DNA from: Eledone cirrhosa
Taxonomy: Eukaryota
Direction of reading: 5' to 3'
Length of the DNA stretch: 64,000 nt
Assembly (NCBI GenBank): GCA_964016885.1
Contig: OZ024740.1
Coordinates: 296,484,001-296,548,000, forward strand
The first letter of the stretch is position 1. Each line of letters opens with the position of its first letter. A model generated the notes under the pieces. That model had not been told where the DNA came from. It was given only the letters and a program-made list of their open reading frames with translations, and made no database searches. Shown here one piece after another: positions 1-42,079 of this stretch. A program made the position numbers and the translations under genes.

Positions 1-3000
1 TTATTTGGTGATCCATTTTTTATTTGGGTGATCCATTCTTTATTTGGGTGATCCATTTTTTATTTTGGGGATCTATTTTTTATTTGGGTGATCCATTTTT
101 TATTTGGGGATCCATTTTTTATTTGGGTGATCCATTTTTTATTTGGGGGATCCATTTTTTATTTGGGGGATCCATTTTTTATTTGGGTGATCCATTTTTT
201 ATTTGGGGGATCCATTTTTTATTTGGGTGATCCATTTTTTATTTGGGGGATCCATTTTTTATTTGGGGGGCCATTTTTTATTTGGGGATCCATCAAATAA
301 AAAATGGATCAACCAAATAAAAAATGGATCACCCAAATAAAAAATGGATCCCTCAAATAAAAAATGGATCCATTTTTTATTTGGGGGATCCATTTTTTAT
401 TTGGGGGTTCCATTTTTTTATTTGGGGGATCCATTTTACATTTGGGTGATCCCTTTTTTATTTGGGTGATCCATATTTTATTTGGGGGATCCATTTTTTA
501 TTTGGGGGATCCATTTTTTATTTGGGTGATCCATTTTTTATTTGGGGGATCCATTTTTTATTTAGGTGATCCATTCTTTAGTTGGGTGATCCATTTATAT
601 TTGGGGGATCCATTTTTTATTTGTGTGATCCATTTTTTATTTGGCAGATCCATTTTTTATTTGGGGGATCCATTTTTTATTTGGGTGATCCATTTTTTAT
701 TTGGGGGATCCATTTTTTATTTGGGTTATACATTTTTTATTTGGGGGATCCATTTTTTATTTGGGTGATCCATTTTTTATTTGGGTGATCCATATTTTAT
801 TTGGGTGATCCATTTTTTATTTGGGGGATCCATTTTTATTTGGGTGATCTATTTTTGATTTGGGTGATCCATTTTTTATTTGGGGGATCCATTTTTTATT
901 TGGGTGATCCATTTTTTATTTGGGGGATCCATTTTTTATTTGGGAGATCCATTTTTGATTTGGGTGATCCATTTTCTATTTGGGTGATCCATTTTTTATT
1001 TGTTGGATCCATTTTTTATTTGGGGGATCCATTTTTATTTGGGGGACCCTATTTTTATTTGGGGGATCCATTTTACATTTGGGGTATCCATTTTTTATTT
1101 GGGTGATCCATTTTTTATTTGGGGGATCCATTTTTTATTTGGGTGATCCATTTTTTATTTGGGTGATCCATTTTTTATTTGGGTGATCCATTTTTTATTT
1201 GTTGGATCCATTTTTTATTTGGTGGATCGACTTTTTATTTGGGGGTTCCATTTTTTATTTGGGGGATCCATTTTACATTTGGGTGATCCATTTTTTATTT
1301 GGGTGATCCATTTTTTATTTAGGGGATCCATTTTTTATTTGGGTGATCCATTTTTTATTTGGGGGATCCATTTTTTATTTGGGTGATCCATTTTCTATTT
1401 GGGGGATCGATTTTTTATTTGGGGGTTCCATTTTTTATTTGGGGGATCCATCAAATAAAAAATGGATCACCCAAATAAAAAATGGATCACCCAAATAAAA
1501 AATGGATCCCCCAAATAGAAAATGGATCCATTTTTTATTTGGGTGATCCATATTTTATTTAGGGGATCCATTTTTTATTTGGGTGATCCATTTTTTATTT
1601 GGGTGATCCATTTTTTATTTGGGTGATCCATTTTTTATTTGGGTGATCCATTTTTTATTTTGGGGATCTATTTATTATTTGGGTGATCCATTTTTTATTT
1701 GGGGGATCCATTTTTTTTTGGGTGATCCATTTTTTATTTGGGGATCCATTTTTTATTTGGGGGATCCATTTTTTATTTGGGTGATCCATTTTTTATTTGG
1801 GGGATCCATTTTTTATTTGGGTGATCCATTTTTAATTTGGGGATCCATTTTTTATTTGGGTGATCCATTTTTTATTTGGGGGATCCATTTTTTGTTTGGG
1901 TTATCCATTTTTTATTTGGGGGATCCATTTTGTATTTGGGTGATCCATTTTTTATTTTGGGGATCCATTTTTTATTTGGGGGATCCATTTTTTATTTGGG
2001 TGATCCATTTTTTATTTGGGTGATCCATTTTTTTATTTGTGGATCCATTTTTTATTTGTGGGATCCATTTTTTATTTGGGGGTTCCCTTTTTTATTTGGG
2101 GGATCCATTTTACATTTGGGTGATCCATTTAGTAATTGGGTGATCCATTTTTTATTTGGGGGATCCATTTTTTATTTGGGTGATCCATTTTTTATTTGGG
2201 TGATCCCTTTTTTATTTGGGTGATCCATTTTTTATTTGGGGAATCCATTTTTATTTGGGGGTTCCATTTTTTATTTGGGGGATCCATTTTTTATTTGGGT
2301 GATCCATATTTTATTTAGGGGATCCATTTTTTATTTGGGTGATCCATTTTTTATTTGGGTGATCCATTTTTTATTTGGGTGATCCATTTTTTATTTTGGG
2401 GATCCATTTTTTATTTGGGTGATCCATTTTTTATTTGGGTGATGAATTTTTTATTTGGGTGATCCATTTTTTATTTGGGGGATCCATTTTTTATTTGGGT
2501 GATCCATTTTTTATTTTGGGGATCCATTTTTTATTTGGGTGATCCATTTTTTTATTTGGGGGATCCATTTTTTATTTGGGTGATCCATTTTTTATTTGGG
2601 GGATCCATTTTTTATTTGGGTGATCCATTTTTTATTTGGGGGATCCATTTTTTATTCGGGGGATCCATTTTTTATTTGGGTGATCCATTTTTTATTTGGG
2701 TGATCCATTTTTTATTTGGGGGATCCATTTTTTATTTCGGTGATCCATTTTTTATTTGGGTGATCCATTCTTTATGTGGGTGATCCATTTTTGATTTGAG
2801 GGATCCATTTTTTATTTGGGTGGTCCATTTTTTATTTGGGTGATCCATTTTTTATTTGGGTGATCCATTTTTTATTTGGGTGATCCATTTTTTATTTGGG
2901 TGATCCATTTTTTATTTGGGGGATCCATTTTTTATTTGTGTGATCCATTTTATATTTGGGGGATCCATTTTTTATTTGGGTATTCATTTTTTATTTGGGG

Positions 3001-6000
3001 GATCCATTTTTTGTTTGGGGGTCCCATTTTTTATTTGGGGGATCCATCAAACAAAAAATGGATCACCCAAATAAAAAATGGATCACCCAAATAAAAAATG
3101 GACCCCCAAACAAAAAATGGATCCATTTTTTATTTGGGGGATCCATTTTTTATTTGGGGGATCCATTTTTTATTTGGGTGATCCATTTTTTATTTGGGTG
3201 ATCCATTTTTTATTTGGGTGATCCATTTTTTATTTGGGGGATCCATTTTTTATTTGGATGATCCATTTTTTATTTGGGGGATCCATTTTTTATTTGGGCG
3301 ATCCAATTTTTATTTGGGTGATCCATTTTTTATTTGGGTGATCCATTTTTTATTTGGGTGATCCATTTTTTATTTGGGGGATCCATTTTTTATTTGTGTG
3401 ATCCATTTTATATTTGGGGGATCCATTTTTTATTTGGGTATCCATTTCTTATTTGGGTGATCCATTTTTTATTTTGGGGATCCATTTTTTATTTGGGGGA
3501 TCCATTTTTTATTTGGGTGATCCATTTTTTATTTGGGTGATCCATTTTTTATTTGTGGATCCATTTTTTATTTGTGGGATCCATTTTTTATTTGGGGGTT
3601 CCATTTTTTATTTGGGGGATCCATTTTACATTTGGGTGATCCATTTAGTAATTGGGTGATCCATTTTTTATTTGGGGGATCCATTTTTTATTTGGGTGAT
3701 CCATTTTTTATTTGGGTGATCCCTTTTTTATTTGGGTGATCCATTTTTTATTTGGGGGATCCATTTTTATTTGGGGGTTCCATTTTTTATTTGGGGATCC
3801 ATCAAATAAAGAATGGATCACCCAAATAAAAAAGGGATCACCCAAATAAAAAATGGATCCCCCAAATAAAAAATGGATCCATTTTTTATTTGGGTGATCC
3901 ATTTTTTATTTGGGGAATCCATTTTTTATTTGGGTGATGCAGTTTTTGTTTGGGTGATCCATTTTTTATTTGGGGGATCCATTTTTTATTTGGGTGATCC
4001 ATATTTTATTTAGGGGATCCATTTTTTATTTGGGTGATCCATTTTTTATTTGGGTGATCCATTTTTTATTTGGGGGATCCATTTTACATTTGGGTGATCC
4101 ATTTTTTATTTGGGTGATCCATTTTTTATTTGGGGGTTCCATTTTTTATTTGGGGGATCCATCAAATAAAAAATGGATCCCCCAAATAAAAAATGGATCC
4201 ATTTTTTATTTGGGTGATCCATTTTTTATTTGGGGGATCCATTTTTTATTTGGGTGATCCAGTTTTTGTTTGGGTGATCCATTTTTTATTTGGGGGATCC
4301 ATTTTTTATTTGGGTGATCCATATTTTATTTAGGGGATCGATTTTTTATTTGGTGATCCATTTTTTATTTGGGTGATCCATTCTTTATTTGGGTGATCCA
4401 TTTTTTATTTTGGGGATCTATTTTTTATTTGGGTGATCCATTTTTTATTTGGGGATCCATTTTTTATTTGGGTGATCCATTTTTTATTTGGGGGATCCAT
4501 TTTTTATTTGGGGGATCCATTTTTTATTTGGGTGATCCATTTTTTATTTGGGGGATCCATTTTTTATTTGGGTGATCCATTTTTTATTTGGGGGATCCAT
4601 TTTTTATTTGGGGGGCCATTTTTTATTTGGGGATCCATCAAATAAAAAATGGATCACCCAAATAAAAAATGGATCACCCAAATAAAAAATGGATCCCTCA
4701 AATAAAAAATGGATCCATTTTTTATTTGGGGGATCCATTTTTTATTTGGGGGTTCCATTTTTTTATTTGGGGGATCCATTTTACATTTGGGTGATCCATT
4801 TTTTATTTGGGTGATCCATATTTTATTTGGGGGATCCATTTTTTATTTGAGGGATCCATTTTTTATTTGGGTGATCCATTTTTTATTTGGGGGATCCATT
4901 TTTTATTTAGGTGATCCATTCTTTAGTTGGGTGATCCATTTATATTTGGGGGATCCATTTTTTATTTGTGTGATCCATTTTTTATTTGGCAGATCCATTT
5001 TTTATTTGGGGGATCCATTTTTTATTTGGGTGATCCATTTTTTATTTGGGGGATCCATTTTTTATTTGGGTTATACATTTTTTATTTGGGGGATCCATTT
5101 TTTATTTGGGTGATCCATTTTTTATTTGGGTGATCCATATTTTATTTGGGTGATCCATTTTTTATTTGGGGGATCCATTTTTATTTGGGTGATCTATTTT
5201 TGATTTGGGTGATCCATTTTTTATTTGGGGGATCCATTTTTTATTTGGGTGATCCATTTTTTATTTGGGGGATCCATTTTTTATTTGGGAGATCCATTTT
5301 TGATTTGGGTGATCCATTTTTTATTTGGGTGATCCATTTTTTATTTGTTGGATCCATTTTTTATTTGGGGGATCCATTTTTATTTGGGGGACCCTATTTT
5401 TATTTGGGGGATCCATTTTACATTTGGGGTATCCATTTTTTATTTGGGTGATCCATTTTTTATTTGGGGGATCCATTTTTTATTTGGGTGATCCATTTTT
5501 TATTTGGGTGATCCATTTTTTATTTGGGTGATCCATTTTTTATTTGTTGGATCCATTTTTTATTTGGTGGATCGACTTTTTATTTGGGGGTTCCATTTTT
5601 TATTTGGGGGATCCATTTTACATTTGGGTGATCCATTTTTTATTTGGGTGATCCATTTTTTATTTAGGGGATCCATTTTTTATTTGGGTGATCCATTTTT
5701 TATTTGGGGGATCCATTTTTTATTTGGGGGATCCATTTTCTATTTGGGGGATCGATTTTTTATTTGGGGGTTCCATTTTTTATTTGGGGGATCCATCAAA
5801 TAAAAAATGGATCACCCAAATAAAAAATGGATCACCCAAATAAAAAATGGATCCCCCAAATAGAAAATGGATCCATTTTTTATTTGGGTGATCCATATTT
5901 TATTTAGGGGATCCATTTTTTATTTGGGTGATCCATTTTTTATTTGGGTGATCCATTTTTTATTTGGGTGATCCATTTTTTATTTGGGTGATCCATTTTT

Positions 6001-7690
6001 TATTTTGGGGATCTATTTATTATTTGGGTGATCCATTTTTTATTTGGGGGATCCATTTTTTTTTGGGTGATCCATTTTTTATTTGGGGATCCATTTTTTA
6101 TTTGGGGGATCCATTTTTTATTTGGGTGATCCATTTTTTATTTGGGGGATCCATTTTTTATTTGGGTGATCCATTTTTAATTTGGGGATCCATTTTTTAT
6201 TTGGGTGATCCATTTTTTATTTGGGGGATCGATTTTTTGTTTGGGTTATCCATTTTTTATTTGGGGGATCCATTTTGTATTTGGGTGATCCATTTTTTAT
6301 TTTGGGGATCCATTTTTTATTTGGGGGATCCATTTTTTATTTGGGTGATCCATTTTTTATTTGGGTGATCCATTTTTTTATTTGTGGATCCATTTTTTAT
6401 TTGTGGGATCCATTTTTTATTTGGGGGTTCCATTTTTTATTTGGGGGATCCATTTTACATTTGGGTGATCCATTTAGTAATTGGGTGATCCATTTTTTAT
6501 TTGGGGGATCCATTTTTTATTTGGGTGATCCATTTTTTATTTGGGTGATCCCTTTTTTATTTGGGTGATCCATTTTTTATTTGGGGAATCCATTTTTATT
6601 TGGGGGTTCCATTTTTTATTTGGGGGATCCATTTTTTATTTGGGTGATCCATATTTTATTTAGGGGATCCATTTTTTATTTGGGTGATCCATTTTTTATT
6701 TGGGTGATCCATTTTTTATTTGGGTGATCCATTTTTGATTTTGGGGATCCATTTTTTATTTGGGTGATCCATTTTTTATTTGGGTGATGAATTTTTTATT
6801 TGGGTGATCCATTTTTTATTTGGGGGATCCATTTTTTATTTGGGTGATCCATTTTTTATTTTGGGGATCCATTTTTTATTTGGGTGATCCATTTTTTTAT
6901 TTGGGGGATCCATTTTTTATTTGGGTGATCCATTTTTTATTTGGGGGATCCATTTTTTATTTGGGTGATCCATTTTTTATTTGGAGGATCCATTTTTTAT
7001 TCGGGGGATCCATTTTTTATTTGGGTGATCCATTTTTTATTTGGGTGATCCATTTTTTATTTGGGGGATCCATTTTTTATTTCGGTGATCCATTTTTTAT
7101 TTGGGTGATCCATTCTTTATGTGGGTGATCCATTTTTGATTTGAGGGATCCATTTTTTATTTGGGTGGTCCATTTTTTATTTGGGTGATCCATTTTTTAT
7201 TTGGGTGATCCATTTTTTATTTGGGTGATCCATTTTTTATTTGGGTGATCCATTTTTTATTTGGGGGATCCATTTTTTATTTGTGTGATCCATTTTATAT
7301 TTGGGGGATCCATTTTTTATTTGGGTATTCATTTTTTATTTGGGGGATCCATTTTTTATTTGGGGGTCCCATTTTTTATTTGGGGGATCCATCAAACAAA
7401 AAATGGATCACCCAAATAAAAAATGGATCACCCAAATAAAAAATGGACCCCCAAACAAAAAATGGATCCATTTTTTATTTGGGGGATCCATTTTTTATTT
7501 GGGGGATCCATTTTTTATTTGGGTGATCCATTTTTTATTTGGGTGATCCATTTTTTATTTGGGTGATCCATTTTTTATTTGGGGGATCCATTTTTTATTT
7601 GGATGATCCATTTTTTATTTTGGGGATCCATTTTTTATTTGGGCGATCCAATTTTTATTTGGGTGATCCATTTTTTATTTGGGTGATCCA
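1..7690 (+). repeat. 4,345-bp higher-order direct duplication (1-~3,345 matches 4,346-~7,690; second copy cut by the large inversion)
   Basis: Near-identical variant patterns at constant offset 4,345: ORF anchors 24/4369, 364/4709, 801/5146, 1619/5964, 2475/6820, 2876/7221. Micro-inversions at 291/4636, 1449/5794 and 3045/7390. Confidence 0.93.
291..371 (-). repeat. Micro-inversion of 4 monomers (type example). Others near 1449, 3045, 3800, 4160, 4636, 5794, 7390, 11218, 12157, 12913, 13373, 13712, 16266, 17102, 17982, 18738, 19617, 39470 and 39946
   Basis: Forward monomers switch at GGATCCAT|CAAATAAAAAATGGATC to 2-4 reverse-complement monomers, then return through the palindrome AAATAAAAAATGGATCCATTTTTTATTT. 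Confidence 0.95.
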
Positions 7691-10538
7691 TCAAATAAAG
7701 AATGGATCACCCAAATAAAAAATGGATCCCCCAAATGTAAAATGGATCCCCCAAATAAAAAATGGATCCCCCAAATAAAAGTGGATCCATTTTTTATTTG
7801 GGGGATCCATTTTTTATTTGAGTGATCCATTTTTTATTTGGGTGATCCATTTCTTATTTGATGGAACCCCCAAATAAAAAATGGAACACCCAAATAAAAA
7901 ATGGATCCCCCAAATAAAAAATGGATCACCCAAATAAAAAATGGATCCCCCAAATAAAAAATGGATCACCCAAATAAAAAATGGATCCCCCAAATAAAAA
8001 ATGGATCAGCCAAATAAAAAATAGATCCCCAAAATAAAAAATAGATCACCCAAATAAAAAATGGATCACCCAAATAAAAAATGGATCACCCAAATAAAAA
8101 ATGGATCCCCTAAATAAAATATGGATCACCCAAATAAAAAATGGATCCCCCAAATAAAAAATGGATCACCCAAACAAAAACTGCATCACCCAAATAAAAA
8201 ATGGATTCCCCAAATAAAAAATGGATCACCCAAATAAAAAATGGATCCATTTTTTATTTGGGGGATCCATTTTTTATTTGGGTGATCCCTTTTTTATTTG
8301 GGTGATCCATTTTTTATTTGACGGATCCCCCAAATAAAAAATGGAACCCCCAAATAAAAATGGATCCCCCAAATAAAAAATGGATCACCCAAATAAAAAA
8401 GGGATCACCCAAATAAAAAATGGATCACCCAAATAAAAAATGGATCCCCCAAATAAAAAATGGATCACCCAATTACTAAATGGATCACCCAAATGTAAAA
8501 TGGATCCCCCAAATAAAAAATGGAACCCCCAAATAAAAAATGGATCCCACAAATAAAAAATGGATCCACAAATAAAAAATGGATCACCCAAATAAAAAAT
8601 GGATCACCCAAATAAAAAATGGATCCCCCAAATAAAAAATGGATCCCCAAAATAAAAAATGGATCACCCAAATAAGAAATGGATACCCAAATAAAAAATG
8701 GATCCCCCAAATATAAAATGGATCACACAAATAAAAAATGGATCCCCCAAATAAAAAATGGATCACCCAAATAAAAAATGGATCACCCAAATAAAAAATG
8801 GATCACCCAAATAAAAATTGGATCGCCCAAATAAAAAATGGATCCCCCAAATAAAAAATGGATCATCCAAATAAAAAATGGATCCCCCAAATAAAAAATG
8901 GATCACCCAAATAAAAAATGGATCACCCAAATAAAAAATGGATCACCCAAATAAAAAATGGATCCCCCAAATATAAAATGGATCCCCCAAATAAAAAATG
9001 GATCCATTTTTTGTTTGGGGGGTCCATTTTTTATTTGGGTGATCCATTTTTTATTTGGGTGATCCATTTTTTATTTGATGGATCCCCCAAATAAAAAATG
9101 GATCCCCCAAATAAAAAATGGATCACCCAAATAAAAAATGGATCACCCAAATAAAAAATGGATCACCCAAATAAAAAATGGATCACCCAAATAAAAAATG
9201 GATCCCTCAAATCAAAAATGGATCACCCACATAAAAAATGGATCACCCAAATAAAAAATGGATCACCCAAATAAAAAATGGATCCCCCAAATAAAAAATG
9301 GATCACCCAAATAAAAAATGGATCACCCAAATAAAAAATGGATCCCCCGAATAAAAAATGGATCCCCCAAATAAAAAATGGATCACCCAAATAAAAAATG
9401 GATCCCCCAAATAAAAAATGGATCACCCAAATAAAAAATGGATCCCCCAAATAAAAAATGGATCACCCAAATAAAAAATGGATCCCCAAAATAAAAAATG
9501 GATCACCCAAATAAAAAATGGATCCCCCAAATAAAAAATGGATCACCCAAATAAAAAATGCATCACCCAAATAAAAAATGGATCACCCAAATAAAAAATG
9601 GATCCCCAAAATAAAAAATGGATCACCCAAATAAAAAATGGATCACCCAAATAAAAAATGGATCACCCAAATAAAAAATGGATCCCCTAAATAAAATATG
9701 GATCACCCAAATAAAAAATGGATCCCCCAAATAAAAAATGGATCACCCAAACAAAAACTGCATCACCCAAATAAAAAATGGATTCCCCAAATAAAAAATG
9801 GATCACCCAAATAAAAAATGGATCCATTTTTTATTTGGGGGATCCATTTTTTATTTGGGTGATCCCTTTTTTATTTGGGTGATCCATTCTTTATTTGATG
9901 GATCCCCCAAATAAAAAATGGAACCCCCAAATAAAAATGGATCCCCCAAATAAAAAATGGATCACCCAAATAAAAAAGGGATCACCCAAATAAAAAATGG
10001 ATCACCCAAATAAAAAATGGATCCCCCAAATAAAAAATGGATCACCCAATTACTAAATGGATCACCCAAATGTAAAATGGATCCCCCAAATAAAAAATGG
10101 AACCCCCAAATAAAAAATGGATCCCACAAATAAAAAATGGATCCACAAATAAAAAATGGATCACCCAAATAAAAAATGGATCACCCAAATAAAAAATGGA
10201 TCCCCCAAATAAAAAATGGATCCCCAAAATAAAAAATGGATCACCCAAATAAGAAATGGATACCCAAATAAAAAATGGATCCCCCAAATATAAAATGGAT
10301 CACACAAATAAAAAATGGATCCCCCAAATAAAAAATGGATCACCCAAATAAAAAATGGATCACCCAAATAAAAAATGGATCACCCAAATAAAAATTGGAT
10401 CGCCCAAATAAAAAATGGATCCCCAAAATAAAAAATGGATCATCCAAATAAAAAATGGATCCCCCAAATAAAAAATGGATCACCCAAATAAAAAATGGAT
10501 CACCCAAATAAAAAATGGACCCCCAAACAAAAAATGGA
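7691..10538 (-). repeat. ~2.85-kb inverted segment of the array (left arm of the large palindrome)
   Basis: Monomers read CCCAAATAAAAAATGGATC on the + strand from ~7,691 to 10,538. They are interrupted only by four forward islands (~7,787-7,862, 8,247-8,322, 9,003-9,078, 9,823-9,898), which are the micro-inversions seen in mirror image. Confidence 0.97.
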
Positions 10539-13525
10539 TCCATTTTTTATTTGGGGGATCCATTTTTTATTTGGGGGATCCATTTTTTATTTGGGTGATC
10601 CATTTTTTATTTGGGTGATCCATTTTTTATTTGGGTGATCCATTTTTTATTTGGGGGATCCATTTTTTATTTGGATGATCCATTTTTTATTTTGGGGATC
10701 CATTTTTTATTTGGGCGATCCAATTTTTATTTGGGTGATCCATTTTTTATTTGGGTGATCCATTTTTTATTTGGGTGATCCATTTTTTATTTGGGGGATC
10801 CATTTTTTATTTGTGTGATCCATTTTATATTTGGGGGATCCATTTTTTATTTGGGTATCCATTTCTTATTTGGGTGATCCATTTTTTATTTTGGGGATCC
10901 ATTTTTTATTTGGGGGATCCATTTTTTATTTGGGTGATCCATTTTTTATTTGGGTGATCCATTTTTTATTTGTGGATCCATTTTTTATTTGTGGGATCCA
11001 TTTTTTATTTGGGGGTTCCATTTTTTATTTGGGGGATCCATTTTACATTTGGGTGATCCATTTAGTAATTGGGTGATCCATTTTTTATTTGGGGGATCCA
11101 TTTTTTATTTGGGTGATCCATTTTTTATTTGGGTGATCCCTTTTTTATTTGGGTGATCCATTTTTTATTTGGGGGATCCATTTTTATTTGGGGGTTCCAT
11201 TTTTTATTTGGGGGATCCATCAAATAAAGAATGGATCACCCAAATAAAAAAGGGATCACCCAAATAAAAAATGGATCCCCCAAATAAAAAATGGATCCAT
11301 TTTTTATTTGGGTGATCCATTTTTTATTTGGGGAATCCATTTTTTATTTGGGTGATGCAGTTTTTGTTTGGGTGATCCATTTTTTATTTGGGGGATCCAT
11401 TTTTTATTTGGGTGATCCATATTTTATTTAGGGGATCCATTTTTTATTTGGGTGATCCATTTTTTATTTGGGTGATCCATTTTTTATTTGGGTGATCCAT
11501 TTTTTATTTTGGGGATCCATTTTTTATTTGGGTGATCCATTTTTTATTTGGGTGATGCATTTTTTATTTGGGTGATCCATTTTTTATTTGGGGGATCCAT
11601 TTTTTATTTGGGTGATCCATTTTTTATTTTGGGGATCCATTTTTTATTTGGGTGATCCATTTTTTATTTGGGGGATCCATTTTTTATTTGGGTGATCCAT
11701 TTTTTATTTGGGGGATCCATTTTTTATTTGGGTGATCCATTTTTTATTTGGGGGATCCATTTTTTATTCGGGGGATCCATTTTTTATTTGGGTGATCCAT
11801 TTTTTATTTGGGTGATCCATTTTTTATTTGGGGGATCCATTTTTTATTTGGGTGATCCATTTTTTATTTGGGTGATCCATTTTTTATGTGGGTGATCCAT
11901 TTTTGATTTGAGGGATCCATTTTTTATTTGGGTGGTCCATTTTTTATTTGGGTGATCCATTTTTTATTTGGGTGATCCATTTTTTATTTGGGTGATCCAT
12001 TTTTTATTTGGGTGATCCATTTTTTATTTGGGGGATCCATTTTTTATTTGTGTGATCCATTTTATATTTGGGGGATCCATTTTTTATTTGGGTATTCATT
12101 TTTTATTTGGGGGATCCATTTTTTATTTGGGGGTCCCATTTTTTATTTGGGGGATCCATCAAATAAAAAATGGATCACCCAAATAAAAAATGGATCACCC
12201 AAATAAAAAATGGACCCCCCAAACAAAAAATGGATCCATTTTTTATTTGGGGGATCCATTTTATATTTGGGGGATCCATTTTTTATTTGGGTGATCCATT
12301 TTTTATTTGGGTGATCCATTTTTTATTTGGGTGATCCATTTTTTATTTGGGGGATCCATTTTTTATTTGGATGATCCATTTTTTATTTGGGGGATCCATT
12401 TTTTATTTGGGCGATCCAATTTTTATTTGGGTGATCCATTTTTTATTTGGGTGATCCATTTTTTATTTGGGTGATCCATTTTTTATTTGGGGGATCCATT
12501 TTTTATTTGTGTGATCCATTTTATATTTGGGGGATCCATTTTTTATTTGGGTATCCATTTCTTATTTGGGTGATCCATTTTTTATTTTGGGGATCCATTT
12601 TTTATTTGGGGGATCCATTTTTTATTTGGGTGATCCATTTTTTATTTGGGTGATCCATTTTTTATTTGTGGATCCATTTTTTATTTGTGGGATCCATTTT
12701 TTATTTGGGGGTTCCATTTTTTATTTGGGGGATCCATTTTACATTTGGGTGATCCATTTAGTAATTGGGTGATCCATTTTTTATTTGGGGGATCCATTTT
12801 TTATTTGGGTGATCCATTTTTTATTTGGGTGATCCCTTTTTTATTTGGGTGATCCATTTTTTATTTGGGGGATCCATTTTTATTTGGGGGTTCCATTTTT
12901 TATTTGGGGGATCCGTCAAATAAAAAATGGATCACCCAAATAAAAAAGGGATCACCCAAATAAAAAATGGATCCCCCAAATAAAAAATGGATCCATTTTT
13001 TATTTGGGTGATCCATTTTTTATTTGGGGAATCCATTTTTTATTTGGGTGATGCAGTTTTTGTTTGGGTGATCCATTTTTTATTTGGGGGATCCATTTTT
13101 TATTTGGGTGATCCATATTTTATTTAGGGGATCCATTTTTTATTTGGGTGATCCATTTTTTATTTGGGTGATCCATTTTTTATTTGGGTGATCTATTTTT
13201 TATTTTGGGGATCTATTTTTTATTTGGCTGATCCATTTTTTATTTGGGGGATCCATTTTTTATTTGGGTGATCCATTTTTTATTTGGGGGATCCATTTTT
13301 TATTTGGGTGATCCATTTTTTATTTGGGGGATCCATTTTTTATTTGGGTGTTCCATTTTTTATTTGGGGGTTCCATCAAATAAGAAATGGATCACCCAAA
13401 TAAAAAATGGATCACTCAAATAAAAAATGGATCCCCCAAATAAAAAATGGATCCACTTTTATTTGGGGGATCCATTTTTTATTTGGGGGATCCATTTTAC
13501 ATTTGGGGGATCCATTTTTTATTTT
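10539..13525 (+). repeat. Right arm of the large palindrome; contains a 1,696-bp internal direct repeat
   Basis: Mirror ORF anchors have constant coordinate sums: 21,118 (9962-10168/10950-11156; 9223-9450/11668-11895) and 21,237 (8385-8591/12646-12852). Internal repeat anchors 10751/12447 and 10950/12646 are offset by 1,696. Confidence 0.93.
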
Positions 13526-15539
13526 GGAGATCCATTTTTTATTTGGGGGATCCATTTTTTATTTGGGTGATCCATTTTTTATTTGGGTGATCCATTTTTT
13601 ATTTGTTGGATCCATTTTTTATTTGGGGGATCCATTTTTTATTTGAGTGATCCATTTTTTATTTGGGGGATCCATTTTTTATTTGGGGGTTCCATTTTTT
13701 ATTTGGGGGATCCATCAAATAAAAAATGGATCACCCAAATAAAAAATGTATCCCCCAAATAAAAAATGGATCCATTTTTTATTTGGGTGATCCATTTTTT
13801 ATTTGGGTGATCCATTTTTTATTTGGGGGATCCATTTTTTATTTGTGTGATCCATTTTATATTTGGGGGATCCATTTTTTATTTGGGTATCCATTTCTTA
13901 TTTGGGTGATCCATTTTTTATTTTGGGGATCCATTTTTTATTTGGGGGATCCATTTTTTATTTGGGTGATCCATTTTTTATTTGGGTGATCCATTTTTTA
14001 TTTGTGGATCCATTTTTTATTTGTGGGATCCATTTTTTATTTGGGGGTTCCATTTTTTATTTGGGGGATCCATTTTACATTTGGGTGATCCATTTAGTAA
14101 TTGGGTGATCCATTTTTTATTTGGGGGTTCCATTTTTTATTTGGGGGATCCATTTTACATTTGGGTGATCCATTTTTTATTTGGGGGATCCATTTTTTAT
14201 TTGGGTGATCCATTTTTTATTTGGGTGATCCAGTTTTTGTTTGGGTGATCCATTTTTTATTTGGGGGATCCATTTTTTATTTGGGTGATCCATTTTTTAT
14301 TTGTTGGATCCATTTTTTATTTGGGGGATCCATTTTTTATTTGGGGGTTCCATTTTTTATTTGGGGGATCCATTTTACATTTGGGTGATCCATTTTTTAT
14401 TTGGGTGACCCATTTTTTATTCGGGGGATCCATTTTTTATTTGGGGGATCCATTTTTTATTTGGGGGTTCCATTTTTTATTTGGGTGATCCATTTTTTAT
14501 TTGGGGGATCCATTTTTTATTTAGGTGATCCATTTTTTAGTTGGGTGATCCATTTTTTATTTGTGTGATCCATTTTTTATTTGGGGGATCCATTTTTTAT
14601 TTGGGGGTTCCATTTTTTATTTGGGTGATCCATTTTTTATTTGGGGGATCCATTTTTTATTTAGGTGATCCATTTTTTAGTTGGGTGATCCATTTTTTAT
14701 TTGTGTGATCCACTTTTTATTTGGCGGATCCATTTTTTATTTGGGGGATCCATTTTTTATTTGGGTGATCCATTTTTTATTTGGGGTATCCATTTTTTAT
14801 TAGGGTGATACATTTTTTATTTGGGGGATCCATTTTTTATTTGGGTGATCCATTTTTTATTTGGGTGATCCATATTTTATTTGCGTGATCCATTTTTTAT
14901 TTGGGTGATCCATTTTTTATTTGGGTGATCCTTTTTTTATTTGGGGGATCCATTTTTTATTTGGGTGATCCATTTTTTATTTGGGTGATCCATTTTTTAT
15001 TTGGGGGATCCATTTTTTATTTGGGTGATCCATTTTTTATTTGGGGGATCCAGTTTTTGTTTGGGTGATCCATTTTTTATTTGGGGGATCCATTTTTTAT
15101 TTGGGTGATCCATATTTTATTTAGGGGATCCATTTTTTATTTGGGTGATCCATTTTTTATTTGGGTGAACCATTTTTTATTTGGGTGATCCATTTTTTAT
15201 TTTGGGGATCTATTTTTTATTTGGGTGATCCATTTTTTATTTGGGGGATCCATTTTTTTTTTTGGTGATCCATTTTTTATTTGGGGATCCATTTTTTATT
15301 TGGGGGATCCATTTTTTATTTGGGTGATCCATTTTTTATTTGGGGGATCCATTTTTTATTTGGGTGATCCATTTTTAATTTGGGGATCCATTTTTTATTT
15401 GGGTGATCCATTTTTTATTTGGGGGATCCATTTTTTATATGGGTGATCCATTTTTTATTTGGGGGATCCATTTTGTATTTGGGTGATCCATTTTTTATTT
15501 GGGGGATCCATTTTTTATTTGGGGGATCCATTTTTTATT

Positions 15540-18500
15540 TGGGTTATACATTTTTTATTTGGGGGATCCATTTTTTATTTGGGTGATCCATTTTTTATTT
15601 GGGTGATCCATATTTTATTTGGGTGATCCATTTTTTATTTGGGGGATCCATTTTTATTTGGGTGATCTATTTTTGATTTGGGTGATCCATTTTTTATTTG
15701 GGGGATCCATTTTTTATTTGGGTGATCCATTTTTTATTTGGGGGATCCATTTTTTATTTGGGAGATCCATTTTTGATTTGGGTAATCCATTTTTTATTTG
15801 GGTGATCCATTTTTTATTTGTTGGATCCATTTTTTATTTGGGGGATCCATTTTTATTTGGGGGACCCTATTTTTATTTGGGGGATCCATTTTACATTTGG
15901 GGTATCCATTTTTTATTTGGGTGATCCATTTTTTATTTGGGGGATCCATTTTTTATTTGGGTGATCCATTTTTTATTTGGGTGATCCATTTTTTATTTGG
16001 GTGATCCATTTTTTATTTGTTGGATCCATTTTTTATTTGGTGGATCGACTTTTTATTTGGGGGTTCCATTTTTTATTTGGGGGATCCATTTTACATTTGG
16101 GTGATCCATTTTTTATTTGGGTGATCCATTTTTTATTTGGGGGATCCATTTTTTATTTGGGTGATCCATTTTTTATTTGGGGGATCCATTTTTTATTTGG
16201 GTGATCCATTTTCTATTTGGGGGATCGATTTTTTATTTGGGGGTTCCATTTTTTATTTGGGGGATCCATCAAATAAAAAATGGATCACCCAAATAAAAAA
16301 TGGATCACCCAAATAAAAAATGGATCCCCCAAATAGAAAATGGATCCATTTTTTATTTGGGTGATCCATATTTTATTTAGGGGATCCATTTTTTATTTGG
16401 GTGATCCATTTTTTATTTGGGTGATCCATTTTTTATTTGGGTGATCCATTTTTTATTTGGGTGATCCATTTTTTATTTTGGGGATCTATTTATTATTTGG
16501 GTGATCCATTTTTTATTTGGGGGATCCATTTTTTTTTGGGTGATCCATTTTTTATTTGGGGATCCATTTTTTATTTGGGGGATCCATTTTTTATTTGGGT
16601 GATCCATTTTTTATTTGGGGGATCCATTTTTTATTTGGGTGATCCATTTTTAATTTGGGGATCCATTTTTTATTTGGGTGATCCATTTTTTATTTGGGGG
16701 ATCCATTTTTTGTTTGGGTTATCCATCTTTTATTTGGGGGATCCATTTTGTATTTGGGTGATCCATTTTTTATTTTGGGGATCCATTTTTTATTTGGGGG
16801 ATCCATTTTTTATTTGGGTGATCCATTTTTTATTTGGGTGATCCATTTTTTTATTTGTGGATCCATTTTTTATTTGTGGGATCCATTTTTTATTTGGGGG
16901 TTCCATTTTTTATTTGGGGGATCCATTTTACATTTGGGTGATCCATTTAGTAATTGGGTGATCCATTTTTTATTTGGGGGATCCATTTTTTATTTGGGTG
17001 ATCCATTTTTTATTTGGGTGATCCCTTTTTTATTTGGGTGATCCATTTTTTATTTGGGGGATCCATTTTTATTTGGGGGTTCCATTTTTTATTTGGGGGA
17101 TCCATCAAATAAAAAATGGATCACCCAAATAAAAAATGGATCCATTTTTTATTTGGGTGATCCATTTTTTATTTGGGGAATCCATTTTTTATTTGGGTGA
17201 TGCAGTTTTTGTTTGGGTGATCCATTTTTTATTTGGGGGATCCATTTTTTATTTGGGTGATCCATATTTTATTTAGGGGATCCATTTTTTATTTGGGTGA
17301 TCCATTTTTTATTTGGGTGATCCATTTTTTATTTGGGTGATCCATTTTTTATTTTGGGGATCCATTTTTTATTTGGGTGATCCATTTTTTATTTGGGTGA
17401 TGCATTTTTTATTTGGGTGATCCATTTTTTATTTGGGGGATCCATTTTTTATTTGGGTGATCCATTTTTTATTTTGGGGATCCATTTTTTATTTGGGTGA
17501 TCCATTTTTTTATTTGGGGGATCCATTTTTTATTTGGGTGATCCATTTTTTATTTGGGGGATCCATTTTTTATTTGGGTGATCCATTTTTTATTTGGGGG
17601 ATCCATTTTTTATTCGGGGGATCCATTTTTTATTTGGGTGATCCATTTTTTATTTGGGTGATCCATTTTTTATTTGGGGGATCCATTTTTTATTTCGGTG
17701 ATCCATTTTTTATTTGGGTGATCCATTCTTTATGTGGGTGATCCATTTTTGATTTGAGGGATCCATTTTTTATTTGGGTGGTCCATTTTTTATTTGGGTG
17801 ATCCATTTTTTATTTGGGTGATCCATTTTTTATTTGGGTGATCCATTTTTTATTTGGGTGATCCATTTTTTATTTGGGGGATCCATTTTTTATTTGTGTG
17901 ATCCATTTTATATTTGGGGGATCCATTTTTTATTTGGGTATTCATTTTTTATTTGGGGGATCCATTTTTTATTTGGGGGATCCATCAAACAAAAAATGGA
18001 TCACCCAAATAAAAAATGGATCACCCAAATAAAAAATGGACCCCCAAACAAAAAATGGATCCATTTTTTATTTGGGGGATCCATTTTTTATTTGGGGGAT
18101 CCATTTTTTATTTGGGTGATCCATTTTTTATTTGGGTGATCCATTTTTTATTTGGGTGATCCATTTTTTATTTGGGGGATCCATTTTTTATTTGGATGAT
18201 CCATTTTTTATTTGGGGGATCCATTTTTTATTTGGGCGATCCAATTTTTATTTGGGTGATCCATTTTTTATTTGGGTGATCCATTTTTTATTTGGGTGAT
18301 CCATTTTTTATTTGGGGGATCCATTTTTTATTTGTGTGATCCATTTTATATTTGGGGGATCCATTTTTTATTTGGGTATCCATTTCTTATTTGGGTGATC
18401 CATTTTTTATTTTGGGGATCCATTTTTTATTTGGGGGATCCATTTTTTATTTGGGTGATCCATTTTTTATTTGGGTGATCCATTTTTTATTTGTGGATCC

Positions 18501-18960
18501 ATTTTTTATTTGTGGGATCCATTTTTTATTTGGGGGTTCCATTTTTTATTTGGGGGATCCATTTTACATTTGGGTGATCCATTTAGTAATTGGGTGATCC
18601 ATTTTTTATTTGGGGGATCCATTTTTTATTTGGGTGATCCATTTTTTATTTGGGTGATCCCTTTTTTATTTGGGTGATCCATTTTTTATTTGGGGGATCC
18701 ATTTTTATTTGGGGGTTCCATTTTTTATTTGGGGGATCCATCAAATAAAAAATGGATCACCCAAATAAAAAAGGGATCACCAAAATAAAAAATGGATCCC
18801 CCAAATAAAAAATGGATCCATTTTTTATTTGGGTGATCCATTTTTTATTTGGGGAATCCATTTTTTATTTGGGTGATGCAGTTTTTGTTTGGGTGATCCA
18901 TTTTTTATTTGGGGGATCCATTTTTTATTTGGGTGATCCATATTTTATTTAGGGGATCCA
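15540..18960 (+). repeat. Dispersed copy of the left-domain block (~720-4,020)
   Basis: Anchors 801/15619 and 1619/16437 (offset 14,818), 2475/17433 (14,958), 3334/18272 (14,938). Shared markers GGTTATACA, GGTGGATCGAC and TTTAGTAATT. Confidence 0.87.
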
Positions 18961-19699
18961 TTTTTTATTTGGGTGATCCATTTTTTATTTGGGTGATCCA
19001 TTTTTTATTTGGGTGATCCATTTTTTATTTTGGGGATCCATTTTTTATTTGGGTGATCCATTTTTTATTTGGGTGATGCATTTTTTATTTGGGTGATCCA
19101 TTTTTTATTTGGGGGATCCATTTTTTATTTGGGTGATCCATTTTTTATTTTGGGGATCCATTTTTTATTTGGGTGATCCATTTTTTATTTGGGGGATCCA
19201 TTTTTTATTTGGGTGATCCATTTTTTATTTGGGGGATCCATTTTTTATTTGGGTGATCCATTTTTTATTTGGGGGATCCATTTTTTATTCGGGGGATCCA
19301 TTTTTTATTTGGGTGATCCATTTTTTATTTGGGTGATCCATTTTTTATTTGGGGGATCCATTTTTTATTTCGGTGATCCATTTTTTATTTGGGTGATCCA
19401 TTTTTTATGTGGGTGATCCATTTTTGATTTGAGGGATCCATTTTTTATTTGGGTGGTCCATTTTTTATTTGGGTGATCCATTTTTTATTTGGGTGATCCA
19501 TTTTTTATTTGGGTGATCCATTTTTTATTTGGGTGATCCCTTTTTTATTTGGGTGATCCATTTTTTATTTGGGGGATCCATTTTTATTTGGGGGTTCCAT
19601 TTTTTATTTGGGGGATCCGTCAAATAAAAAATGGATCACCCAAATAAAAAAGGGATCACCCAAATAAAAAATGGATCCCCCAAATAAAAAATGGATCCA

Positions 19700-22600
19700 T
19701 TTTTTATTTGGGTGATCCATTTTTTATTTGGGTGATCCATTTTTTATTTGTTGGATCCATTTTTTATTTGGGGGATCCATTTTTTATTTGGGCGTTCCAT
19801 TTTTTATTTGGGGGATCCATTTTACATTTGGGTGATCCATTTTTTATTTGGGTGATCCATTTTTTATTTGGGGGATCCATTTTTTATTTGGGTGATCCAT
19901 TTTTTATTTGGGTGATCCAGTTTTTAGTTGGGTGATCCATTTTTTATTTGGGGGATCCATTTTTTATTTGGGTGATCCATTTTTTATTTGTTGGATCCAT
20001 TTTTTATTTGGGGGATCTATTTTTTATTTGGGGGTTCCATTTTTTATTTGGGGGATCCATTTTACATTTGGGTGATCCATTTTTTATTTGGGTGATCCAT
20101 TTTTTATTTGGGGTATCCATTTTTTATTTGGGGGATCCATTTTTTATTTGTGTGATCCATTTTTTATTTGGCGGATCCATTTTTTATTTGGGGGATCCAT
20201 TTTTTATTTGGGGATCCATTTTTTATTTAGGTGATCCATTTTTTAGTTGGGTGATCCATTTTTATTTGGGGGATCCATTTTTCATTTGTGTGATCCATTT
20301 TTTATTTGGCGGATCCATTTTTATTTGGGGGATCCATTTTTTATTTGTGTGATCCATTTTTTATTTGGCAGATACATTTTTTATTTGGGGGAACCATTTT
20401 TTATTTGGGTGATCCATTTTTTATTTGGGGGATCCATTTTTTATTTGGGTGATACATTTTTTATTTGGGGGATCCATTTTTTATTTGGGTGATCCATTTT
20501 TTATTTGGGTGATCCATTTTTTATTTGGGAGATCCATTTTTTATTTTGGTGACCCATTTTTTATTTTGGTGATCCATTTTTTATTTGTTGGATCCATTTT
20601 TTATTTGGGGGATCTATTTTTATTTGGGGGACCCTATTTTTATTTGGGGGATCCATTTTACATTTGGGTGATCCATTTTACATTTGGGTGATCCATTTTT
20701 TATTTGGGTGATCCATTTTTTATTTGGTGGATCCATTTTTTATTTGGGGTATCCATTTTTTATTTGGGTGATCCATTTTTTATTTCGGGGATCCATTTTT
20801 TATTTGGGTGATCCATTTTTTATTTGGGTGATCCATTTTTTATTTGGGTGATCCATTTTTTATTTGTTGGATCCATTTTTTATTTGGGGGATCTATTTTT
20901 TATTTGGGGGTTCCATTTTTAATTTGGGGGATCCATTTTACATTTGGGTGATCCATTTTTTATTTGGGTGATCCATTTTTTATTTGGGGGATCCATTTTT
21001 TATTTGGGTGATCCATTTTTTATTTGGGTGATCCAGTTTTTGTTTGGGTGATCCATTTTTTATTTGGGGGATCCATTTTTTATTTGGGTGATCCATTTTT
21101 TATTTGTTGGATCCATTTTTTATTTGGGGGATCCATTTTTTATTTGGGGGATCCATTTTTTATTTGGGGGATCCATTTTTTATTTGGGGGATCCATTTTT
21201 TATTTGGGGGATCCATTTTTTATTTGGGTGATCCATTTTTTATTTGGGGGATCCATTTTTTATTTAGCTGATCCATTTTTTAGTTGGGTGATCCATTTTT
21301 ATTTGGGGGATCCATTTTTTATTTGTGTGATCCATTTTTTATTTGGCGGATCCATTTTTATTTGGGGGATCCATTTTTTATTTGTGTGATCCATTTTTTA
21401 TTTGGCAGATCCATTTTTTATTTGGGGGATCCATTTTTTATTTGGGTGATCCATTTTTTATTTGGGGGATCCATTTTTTATTTGGGTGATCCATTTTTTA
21501 TTTGGGGGATCCATTTTTTATTTGGGTGATCCATTTTTTATTTGGGTGATCCATATTTTATTTGGGTGATCCATTTTTTATTTCGGGGATCCATTTTTTA
21601 TTTGGGTGATCCATTTTTTATTTGGGTGATCCATTTTTTATTTGGGTGATCCATTTTTTATTTGTTGGATCCATTTTTTATTTGGGGGATCTATTTTTTA
21701 TTTGGGGGTTCCATTTTTTATTTGGGGGATCCATTTTACATTTGGGTGATCCATTTTTTATTTGGGTGATCCATTTTTTATTTGGGGGATCCATTTTTTA
21801 TTTGGGTGATCCATTTTTTATTTGGGTGATCCAGTTTTTGTTTGGGTGATCCATTTTTTATTTGGGGGATCCATTTTTTATTTGGGTGATCCATTTTTTA
21901 TTTGTTGGATCCATTTTTTATTTGGGGGATCCATTTTTTATTTGGGGGATCCATTTTTTATTTGGGGGATCCATTTTTTATTTGGGGGATCCATTTTTTA
22001 TTTGGGGGATCCATTTTTTATTTGGGTGATCCATTTTTTATTTGGGGGATCCATTTTTTATTTAGCTGATCCATTTTTTAGTTGGGTGATCCATTTTTAT
22101 TTGGGGGATCCATTTTTTATTTGTGTGATCCATTTTTTATTTGGCGGATCCATTTTTATTTGGGGGATCCATTTTTTATTTGTGTGATCCATTTTTTATT
22201 TGGCAGATCCATTTTTTATTTGGGGGATCCATTTTTTATTTGGGTGATCCATTTTTTATTTGGGGGATCCATTTTTTATTTGGGTGATCCATTTTTTATT
22301 TGGGGGATCCATTTTTTATTTGGGTGATCCATTTTTTATTTGGGTGATCCATATTTTATTTGGGTGATCCATTTTTTATTTGGGGGATCCATTTTTTATT
22401 TGGGTGATCCAATTTTTTATTTGGGTGATCCATTTTTTATTTGGGTGATCCATTTTTTATTTGGGTGATCCATTTTTTATTTGGGGGACCCTATTTTTAT
22501 TTGGGGGATCCATTTTACATTTGGGTAATCCATTTTTTATTTGGGTGATCCATTTTTTATTTCGTGGATCCATTTTTTATTTGGGGTATCCATTTTTTAT

Positions 22601-41215: not shown

Positions 41216-42079
41216 GGTGATCCATTTTTATTTGGGGGATCCATTTTTTATTTGTGTGATCCATTTTTTATTTGGCGGATCCATTTTTTATTTGGAGGAT
41301 CCATTTTTTATTTGGGGATCCATTTTTTATTTAGGTGATCCATTTTTTAGTTGGGTGATCCATTTTTATTTGGGGGATCCATTTTTTATTTGTGTGATCC
41401 ATTTTTTATTTGGCGGATCCATTTTTATTTGGGGGATCCATTTTTTATTTGTGTGATCCATTTTTTATTTGGCAGATCCATTTTTTATTTGGGGGAACCA
41501 TTTTTTATTTGGGTGATCCATTTTTTATTTGGCGGATCCATTTTTTATTTGGGTGATCCATTTTTTATTTGGGGGATCCATTTTTTATTTGGGTGATCCA
41601 TTTTTTATTTGGGTGATCCATTTTTGATTTGGGTGATCCATTTTTTATTTGGGGGATCCATTTTTTATTTGGGTGATCCATTTTTTATTTGGGGGATCCA
41701 TTTTTTATTTGGGAGATCCATTTTTTATTTGGGTGATCCATTTTTTATTTGGGTGATCCATTTTTTATTTGTTGGATCCATTTTTTATTTGGGGGATCCA
41801 TTTTTATTTGGGGGACCCTATTTTTATTTGGGGGATCCATTTTACATTTGGGGTATCCATTTTTTATTTGGGTGATCCATTTTTTATTTGGGGGATCCAT
41901 TTTTTATTTGGGTGATCCATTTTTTATTTGGGTGATCCATTTTTTATTTGGGGGATCCATTTTTTATTTGGGTGATCCATTTTTTATTTGGGGGATCCAT
42001 TTTTTATTTGGGTGATCCATTTTCTATTTGGGGGATCGATTTTTTATTTGGGGGTTCCATTTTTTATTTGGGGGATCCA

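What the first reader, a model, noticed from the sequence alone, without database searches (positions are those of the whole stretch)
7691..13525. ~5.8-kb spacerless palindrome embedded in the satellite
Seen: 7,712-10,538 is the reverse complement of 10,539-13,525. The match includes private variants: GACGGATCC at 8,322 mirrors GGATCCGTC at 12,915, GATCAGC ~8,005 mirrors GCTGATC ~13,228, and GTGGATCC 7,781 mirrors GGATCCAC 13,456. The centre is the GGATCC at 10,536-10,541 with no spacer. The arms differ by 41 bp beside the centre and by a 119-bp difference near 9,100/11,930-12,150. This makes it an inverted duplication rather than a simple inversion. Established: long spacerless palindromes extrude hairpins/cruciforms and are fragile sites. 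Inference: recent fold-back or template-switch event; the arm differences argue somewhat against a single-read fold-back chimera.
Basis: partly seen in the sequence, partly recalled or inferred. Interest (0 to 1): 0.72.

Follow-up and report, generated by a model that had tools for sequence, protein, structure and literature searches.

The report
Fresh inverted duplication inside satellite DNA
A 2.8-kb back-to-front copy of neighbouring repeat DNA sits in a 20-base satellite array and forms a 5.8-kb near-palindrome with a 79-base gap rather than a gapless one; it likely arose when DNA copying made two U-turns at older tiny inversions, a known kind of rearrangement, and it has not been confirmed on raw reads.

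Summary
The palindrome is in the assembly, but it is not spacerless. The arms 7,713-10,519 and 10,599-13,524 match with 0 substitutions in 2,807 bp. A 79-nt gap separates them, and the left arm lacks two whole-monomer pieces (20 and 99 bp). Skipping 7,692-10,763 (3,072 bp) restores a gapless 6,429-bp match to a paralog 99-102 kb upstream, so the left arm is a recent insertion. It is flanked by a 294-bp direct repeat, and copy numbers run 1-2-3-2-1: a kilobase-scale DUP-TRP/INV-DUP. Both strand switches lie inside pre-existing 40-80-bp micro-inversion islands, which cover 3.4% of this domain, and reuse their junctions. The likely mechanism is replicative template switching: a fold-back on a ready-made 50-bp stem, then a return through a second island. 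A sister array holds older palindromes of 17.6 kb (21 substitutions) and 1.0 kb, the smaller copied inside the larger, so such events are heritable here. Read support was not examined; I put an artefact or single somatic molecule at about 18%. The scan earlier noted island-seeded inversions in other satellite arrays of this genome. Known rearrangement class, unusual setting, modest interest.

The parts
1..64000 (+). 20-bp satellite (consensus TTATTTGGGTGATCCATTTT) filling the whole window; part of an array of about 417 kb (window-relative about -329 kb to +88 kb)
7398..7691 (+). First copy of the 294-bp direct repeat; begins inside a micro-inversion island (about 7,387-7,468)
   Evidence: identical to 10,470-10,763; carries a variant word found only 3 times, all at this locus
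7692..10763 (.). The 3,072-bp insertion relative to the empty paralog
   Evidence: skipping it gives a gapless 6,429-bp alignment with 11 substitutions to window-relative -93,259..-86,831; piece lengths sum to 3,072
7685..7722 (+). Left strand-switch junction, copied from the start of an island; implies a 457-bp forward skip (10,764-11,220)
   Evidence: 38 bp identical to 11,214-11,251; the word occurs at only 4 places in 604 kb; the 32-mer 7,681-7,712 is single-copy in the genome
7713..10519 (-). New inverted arm: copy of 10,599-13,524 lacking 20 bp and 99 bp
   Evidence: 0 substitutions in 2,807 aligned bp
9102..9202 (-). Consensus-monomer patch between the two whole-monomer losses (matches 11,936-12,036); the flanking junction words are unique in 604 kb
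10470..10519 (+). 50-bp stem arm inside the central island, reverse complement of 10,599-10,648; likely fold-back or switch site
   Evidence: the same 50-bp perfect stem pre-exists at the unrearranged island copy 7,398-7,447
10520..10598 (.). 79-nt gap between the long arms; holds the ordinary GGATCC island junction (10-bp perfect arms) and the 41-nt offset
10470..10763 (+). Second copy of the 294-bp direct repeat; 10,599-10,763 is the triplicated segment
10599..13524 (+). Native (template) arm, collinear with the paralog near -91 kb
11214..11295 (-). Island that is the best donor of the left junction; 10-bp exact inverted homology to 13,515-13,524
13377..13455 (-). Island near the far end of the template arm; 16-bp inverted match (13,398-13,413 with 13,509-13,524, 95-nt gap); alternative second fold site

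Best explanation
This is a recent 3,072-bp out-and-back insertion (a 2.8-kb inverted copy plus a 294-bp direct repeat) in a 20-bp satellite, likely made by two template switches during DNA synthesis that used older micro-inversion islands as ready-made inverted homology. Shown: the anatomy, the empty paralog, the 1-2-3-2-1 copy profile, both switch points inside islands, and the pre-existing 50-bp stem with a 79-nt loop. Inferred, reading right to left: a nascent or broken 3' end reached the island at 10,470-10,519, folded onto 10,599-10,648, copied about 2.9 kb to 13,524, and rejoined the normal template through the island at 11,214-11,251, 781 bp behind the departure point. The mirror reading, a BIR-like jump ahead from the 11,214 island and a return through the 10,470 island, gives the same sequence. 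Three whole-monomer losses (457, 99 and 20 bp), all in the new material, are inferred to be slips during or soon after that synthesis. No function is implied; it is most likely a neutral product of satellite turnover.
For: Empty paralog, gapless over 6,429 bp. Left arm shares the right arm's private words at 11,229, 11,850, 13,384 and 13,456, so it was copied in cis. Centre junction carries island-specific variants, and its 71-bp tail has 15 copies. Left junction has a 38-bp island match. Islands cover 9,367 bp, 3.4% of the domain, so two random ends in islands would be about 1 in 900 (my estimate). The three symmetric de novo plus-to-minus junction words tested occur 0 times, against 213 island-type junction words in 604 kb. 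The sister array at C1:279.47-279.70 Mb has a 17.6-kb palindrome (21 substitutions in 8,437 bp, 726-bp spacer). It also has a 1.0-kb palindrome (48-nt gap, 106-bp direct repeat) present in both arms of the larger one, so that event was inherited. The layout matches haplotype structure 2 of DUP-TRP/INV-DUP (PMC11293582, passages) and '4 before 1' switches that leave a direct repeat (PMC7954356, passages).
Against: No read-level support was examined, and no listed run was shown to hold the junction. Zero substitutions and single-copy junctions are also what an artefact or a somatic event would give. The left switch has only 10 bp of exact homology and needs an extra 457-bp skip. A short-gap fold at the 13,377 island also fits. 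The substrate is not special: 44 of 145 islands have an equal or longer perfect stem within 250 nt. Direction and enzymes cannot be read from the sequence.
Confidence: 0.6

Rival explanations
1. ODIRA-type origin: a full inverted triplication of about 10,599-13,400 formed first through two short-gap folds (79 nt at the central island, 95 nt at the 13,377 island). Most of the first direct copy was then lost in at least two in-register deletions (457 bp and 2,156 bp, island to island), eroding the left palindrome.
For: The inverted arm ends about 70 bp past an island (12.5% of nearby positions do so by chance); a 16-bp inverted match with a 95-nt gap exists there, and 22 bp of direct homology link the two islands. 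The 79-nt gap lies in the 40-80 bp range favoured in yeast ODIRA junctions (PMC10766183, passages). Erosion of one palindrome arm is that model's prediction (PMC10766186, parts 1-2 of 6).
Against: It needs one more event than the two-switch model. The junction variant at 7,700 matches the 11,214 island, not the 13,377 island. Only 165 bp (plus 31 bp) is triplicated now. A replication origin in the segment could not be tested. PMC11293582 reports not having observed full triplications in its patients (passage).
Confidence: 0.17
2. Library, assembly or single-cell product: a chimeric amplified molecule or a rare somatic molecule was adopted by the assembler inside a hard-to-map satellite.
For: Arms identical, junction 32-mer single-copy in the genome, platform and depth unknown, no independent run shown to hold it. 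Foldback inversions dominate the filtered pool of PacBio libraries in one preprint (10.64898/2026.06.24.734375, passages). Transient inverted triplications are seen in reads from AT-rich fungal heterochromatin (10.1101/2025.01.14.632981, abstract and section 6). Phi29 amplification makes inverted chimeras (recalled).
Against: A fold-back read has one switch; this locus has two and resumes in register with the empty paralog on both sides. There is no adapter-like insert, and no substitution or 1-bp indel over about 140 monomers with T runs. Three monomer-precise losses lie in the new copy. Older palindromes with diverged arms exist in the sister array, one nested and duplicated. Virtually no foldback reads were found in the HiFi data examined by PMC12870357 (passages; only three PacBio samples).
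Confidence: 0.18
3. One reading: a de novo spacerless palindrome formed at GGATCC 10,538/10,539 that acts as a cruciform fragile site, or a plain in-place inversion that looks palindromic only because monomers are alike.
For: A perfect 20-bp palindrome does sit at the polarity switch, and higher-order repeat copies give inverted matches of up to 1,248 bp to distant paralogs.
Against: The centre is an inherited island junction (15 copies). The long arms pair only in the 79-nt-gap register. There is a net gain of 3,072 bp over the paralog, and private variants are shared with the adjacent arm, so it is not a plain inversion.
Confidence: 0.05

Closest known systems
DUP-TRP/INV-DUP, haplotype structure 2 (Grochowski et al. 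2024, PMC11293582; passages read)
   Same: 1-2-3-2-1 copy profile; triplication and distal duplication inverted; two strand switches, one at an inverted-repeat pair.
   Different: Here about 3 kb rather than tens to hundreds of kb (their second duplication is 16-575 kb); the inverted repeats are 40-80-bp satellite islands, not 0.9-140-kb low-copy repeats; both switches use islands; extra whole-monomer losses; no gene.
ODIRA inverted amplification (PMC10766183 passages; PMC10766186 parts 1-2 of 6)
   Same: Central junction at a pre-existing interrupted inverted repeat with a 79-nt gap.
   Different: No full triplication; the left junction is not a short-gap fold unless secondary deletions are assumed; stem 50 bp against 2-14 bp in yeast; origin unknown.
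Four-point short-range template switch, '4 before 1' class (Walker et al. 2021, PMC7954356; passages)
   Same: Out-and-back reverse copy with return behind the departure point, leaving direct plus inverted repeats.
   Different: That study concerns short-range events seen as mutation clusters; this one is kilobase-scale and homology-guided within a tandem array.
Macro-dyad symmetries with conserved inversion sites in Tribolium madens TmSat1/TmSat2 (PMC13081366; passages)
   Same: Satellite arrays with polarity switches, kilobase palindrome-like structure and a few highly repeated junction types.
   Different: Those are array-level orientation dyads proposed to be functional; this is a sequence-identical inverted duplication whose ancestral allele can be read, in an unrelated 20-bp satellite, and it shows old junctions being reused.
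Fold-back inverted duplications with a disomic spacer (Hermetz et al. 2014, PMC3907307; passages)
   Same: Single-copy-like loop between arms with inverted homology at its edge.
   Different: Spacers there are 766-70,466 bp and the events go with terminal deletion or translocation; here the chromosome resumes in register, with no net loss against the paralog.

Membership tests
DUP-TRP/INV-DUP | Copy-number profile 1-2-3-2-1 against the ancestral allele | tested here: met
   10,470-10,598 x2, 10,599-10,763 x3, 10,764-13,524 x2, with small exceptions (31 bp x3; 20 and 99 bp x1); the ancestral state is taken from a paralog
DUP-TRP/INV-DUP | Middle copy of the triplicated segment inverted | tested here: met
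   7,527-7,691 direct, 10,355-10,519 inverted, 10,599-10,763 direct
DUP-TRP/INV-DUP | A switch junction inside a pre-existing inverted-repeat pair | tested here: met
   50-bp stem pre-exists at the unrearranged island
DUP-TRP/INV-DUP | Only two junctions | tested here: inconclusive
   two strand switches plus three same-strand whole-monomer losses; whether these are secondary cannot be told
DUP-TRP/INV-DUP | Both junctions in cis on single molecules | not tested
   assembly only; no reads were examined
ODIRA product | Junctions at short interrupted inverted repeats within about 100 bp | tested here: inconclusive
   met at the centre (79 nt); the left junction is 2.26 kb apart by the shortest path, 95 nt only if two deletions are assumed
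ODIRA product | Full inverted triplication | tested here: not met
   165 bp of about 2.9 kb is triplicated
ODIRA product | Replication origin within the amplified segment | not testable with these tools
   no origin map
Perfect (spacerless) long palindrome | Long arms meet with a gap under about 10 nt (threshold recalled) | tested here: not met
   79-nt gap; perfect central arms 10 bp
Tribolium-type macro-dyad satellite | Kilobase inverted subarrays with few conserved inversion sites | tested here: met
   two junction cores dominate the polarity switches in the 422 kb mapped; 213 island-type plus-to-minus words
Tribolium-type macro-dyad satellite | (Peri)centromeric, multi-megabase location | not testable with these tools
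   this array is about 0.42 Mb at 296 Mb of a 443-Mb scaffold; no CENP-A or cytology data

The most novel reading that the evidence does not exclude
The amplified micro-inversion islands act as self-renewing U-turns. Each new inverted duplication borrows two old island junctions, adds islands in the opposite sense, and ratchets a one-way satellite array towards the strand mosaic seen in this array's left third and in the sister array. This window would be the youngest step caught beside its intact ancestral allele. Conserved inversion sites in satellite macro-dyads, proposed to be functional in Tribolium, would then arise without selection.
Probability: 0.4. Interest if true: 0.55.

Novelty: new variant of a known kind. 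Interest (0 to 1): 0.36.

Why it matters
If real, it is a rare base-by-base before-and-after record of an inverted duplication inside a satellite array, with the empty allele 100 kb away and older examples (1.0 kb and 17.6 kb) in a sister array. It offers a neutral, testable explanation for why satellite polarity switches share a few fixed junction sequences: new switches reuse old ones. It has no gene content and no shown function, the rearrangement class is well described, and the scan has noted the same pattern in other arrays of this genome, so the weight is modest.

Tried and rejected
A DNA search of the own genome with 7,700-8,400 was not scored (too many candidates); exact patterns worked.

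The run search with 7,655-7,745 (4 sampled words) listed three reduced-representation short-read runs by species label only. None was shown to hold the stretch, so it says nothing either way. No reads were laid on the locus.

Four monomer words found 0 papers in the held library. The satellite is therefore unnamed in those searches, not shown to be undescribed. Supplements were not consulted. The clade was not tested here.

Earlier-finding look-ups near the locus and by sequence gave nothing relevant.

Rejected:
- Plain inversion: net gain of 3,072 bp.
- A distant donor for the left arm: private words are shared only with the adjacent arm, and the deletion-junction words are unique in 604 kb. 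The 124-bp consensus patch does match other places, so one patch replacement cannot be told from two slips.
- A de novo centre at GGATCC: it is an inherited island tail.
- A specially strong fold substrate: 44 of 145 islands are as good.

Only about 0.42 Mb of this array, 0.23 Mb of the sister array and 60 kb of a third region were surveyed. Many of the 1,315 genome-wide junction hits were not listed or examined.
Full report
Setting. The whole window is one 20-bp satellite (TRF: 3,210 copies, 88% matches). It lies at C1:296,484,001-296,548,000 of a 3.0-Gb genome, on a 443-Mb scaffold. From 604 kb fetched around it, the array runs from about -329 kb to +88 kb in window coordinates. It begins beside a 200-N gap and is followed by about 67 kb of a related GC-richer satellite. 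Right of about -191 kb the array reads mostly forward with short reversed islands; left of that it is mostly reversed and heavily mixed. The forward domain has 146 islands, mostly 2-4 monomers long, covering 9,367 bp or 3.4%.

The observation. Exact-match analysis gives 7,713-9,101 as the reverse complement of 12,136-13,524 (1,389 bp) and 9,184-10,519 as that of 10,599-11,934 (1,336 bp). They rank first and second among 113 inverted matches of 200 bp or more in 422 kb. Without the left arm, the longest inverted match is 218 bp. Alignment shows 0 substitutions in 2,807 bp and two whole-monomer pieces (20 and 99 bp) missing from the left arm. The right arm's version of that region also occurs in other repeat copies, so the loss is in the left arm. 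The structure is not spacerless: the long arms pair 500 of 500 in a register with a 79-nt gap and 252 of 500 in the GGATCC-centred register. The perfect palindrome at 10,538/10,539 has 10-bp arms and is the ordinary island junction.

What it is. Positions 7,398-7,691 and 10,470-10,763 are identical (294 bp). Skipping the 3,072 bp from 7,692 to 10,763 gives a gapless 6,429-bp alignment with 11 substitutions to a paralog at -93,259..-86,831, so the empty state survives in the same array. The left arm carries words found only in itself and the adjacent right arm (11,229, 11,850, 13,384, 13,456), and one word occurs exactly three times, once in each copy of the triplicated piece. It was therefore copied locally, after the right arm diverged from that paralog. 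Zero changes in 2,807 bp has probability 0.008 at the paralog's 0.17% divergence. Copy numbers on ancestral coordinates are 1, 2 (10,470-10,598), 3 (10,599-10,763), 2 (10,764-13,524), 1, with small exceptions, and the pieces sum to exactly 3,072 bp.

The junctions. The central switch lies in an island whose 71-bp tail has 15 copies. At the unrearranged copy of that island, 7,398-7,447 already forms a perfect 50-bp stem with sequence 79 nt downstream. The left switch, 7,685-7,722, is identical over 38 bp to the start of the island at 11,214-11,251 and overlaps the inverted arm by 10 bp. That word occurs at 4 places in 604 kb, and the junction 32-mer is single-copy in the genome. Reaching it needs a 457-bp forward skip. 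No new junction type was made: three symmetric de novo plus-to-minus words occur 0 times, against 213 island-type words.

Mechanism. Shown: anatomy, ancestral allele, cis origin, both switches in islands. Inferred: two template switches during DNA synthesis. Read right to left, this is a fold-back at the central island, about 2.9 kb of reverse copying, and a return through the 11,214 island 781 bp behind the departure point. Read left to right, it is a BIR-like jump ahead and return. The overlap rules out simple repair of one break in one chromatid (inference). Three whole-monomer losses (457, 99, 20 bp) lie only in new material. I give this 0.60. An ODIRA-type full triplication followed by erosion also fits (0.17): an island 70 bp inside the arm's far end offers a 16-bp stem with a 95-nt gap, but this needs one more deletion and does not explain the variant at 7,700 without the 11,214 island. 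An artefact or single somatic molecule gets 0.18, and the strict spacerless or plain-inversion readings 0.05.

Real or artefact. No reads were examined, and the run search showed no holder. Against reality: identical arms, single-copy junctions, unknown platform, a preprint in which foldback inversions dominate the filtered pool of PacBio libraries (10.64898/2026.06.24.734375, passages), and transient inverted triplications in fungal long reads (10.1101/2025.01.14.632981, abstract and section 6). For reality: two switches with in-register resumption on both sides, no adapter-like insert, no small errors over about 140 monomers, and near-absence of foldbacks in the HiFi data of PMC12870357 (passages). 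The strongest indirect point is the sister array at C1:279.47-279.70 Mb, found from the spacing of hits. It holds a 17.6-kb palindrome with 21 substitutions in 8,437 bp and a 726-bp spacer. It also holds a 1.0-kb palindrome with a 48-nt gap, one mismatch and a 106-bp direct repeat, present in both arms of the larger one. Such events therefore occur and are inherited in this satellite family. In the two arrays surveyed (about 0.42 and 0.23 Mb) I found two multi-kilobase palindromes and that 1.0-kb one, and none of that size in 60 kb of a third region.

Comparison with what is known. The layout equals haplotype structure 2 of DUP-TRP/INV-DUP (PMC11293582, passages) at a far smaller scale, and a kilobase version of the '4 before 1' template switch (PMC7954356, passages). 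The 79-nt gap falls in the 40-80 bp range of yeast ODIRA junctions (PMC10766183, passages), but full triplication is not met. Human fold-back duplications have longer spacers and terminal loss (PMC3907307, passages). Tribolium satellites show macro-dyads with conserved inversion sites, which that paper says were documented only in that genus and may be functional (PMC13081366, passages). An inverted pair of satellite blocks with an 87-bp spacer is also mentioned in a Drosophila and human study (10.64898/2026.07.13.738322, passage). Four monomer words found no paper. Unreviewed scan notes report island-seeded inversions in a 16-bp satellite of this genome and a flip-dense stretch of the sister array. 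My reading was written before I saw them, and they are not independent support.

Verdict. Observation partly confirmed: the palindrome is real in the assembly but interrupted. Interpretation partly supported. It is a new variant of a known rearrangement class, interesting mainly as a dated snapshot of how satellite arrays gain polarity switches by reusing old junctions. Interest 0.36.

Noticed in passing
G000:C1:279,660,885-279,678,526 (L081-L082): 17.6-kb palindrome in a sister array of the same 20-bp satellite: arms about 8.45 kb, 21 substitutions in 8,437 bp, 726-bp spacer; the centre and the left outer end lie at GGATCC island-type junctions; it sits at a large polarity switch.
   Followed up: partly
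G000:C1:279,666,903-279,667,930 and 279,671,479-279,672,506 (L081, L082): 1.0-kb palindrome (48-nt gap, one mismatch, 106-bp direct repeat) present in both arms of the larger palindrome, so older than it; same out-and-back look as the window's event. Its empty allele was not fully reconstructed.
   Followed up: partly
islands throughout the window, e.g. 11,214-11,299; variant array at G000:C1:295,446,600-295,460,000 (L089-L090): Each island reads as an in-place inversion between the 8-bp inverted pair GGATCCAT and ATGGATCC. The monomer variant that supplies the second half has 0 un-inverted copies in this array but 213 at junctions, and is an ordinary tandem monomer in the 295.45-Mb array. One or a few old events spread by homogenisation is the likely reading.
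   Followed up: partly
window-relative about -191 kb (G000:C1 near 296,293,000; L021): Array-scale polarity switch: forward with small islands to the right, reversed and heavily mixed to the left; the switch is again at a GGATCC junction.
   Followed up: no
window-relative -329 kb to -278 kb (L048-L053): The 20-bp satellite is interleaved every 1-3 kb with blocks of other sequence, seen at the left edge as an AT-rich degenerate repeat, and begins beside a 200-N scaffold gap.
   Followed up: no
window-relative +87.8 kb to +155 kb (L040, L061-L066): Abrupt in-register change to a related, more divergent GC-richer satellite (45% GC) that lacks the GGATCC core and shows almost no reverse-strand words in 67 kb, which fits the idea that the palindromic core is needed for polarity switches.
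   Followed up: no
window 19,698-39,462: A 19.8-kb island-free forward stretch, whereas 39.5-64 kb has islands every 0.6-4 kb from recent higher-order duplications (exact direct matches up to 3,690 bp).
   Followed up: no
window-relative 72,517-72,787 (L003): A 271-bp (13-monomer) island with standard junctions, intermediate between the 80-bp islands and kilobase inversions.
   Followed up: no
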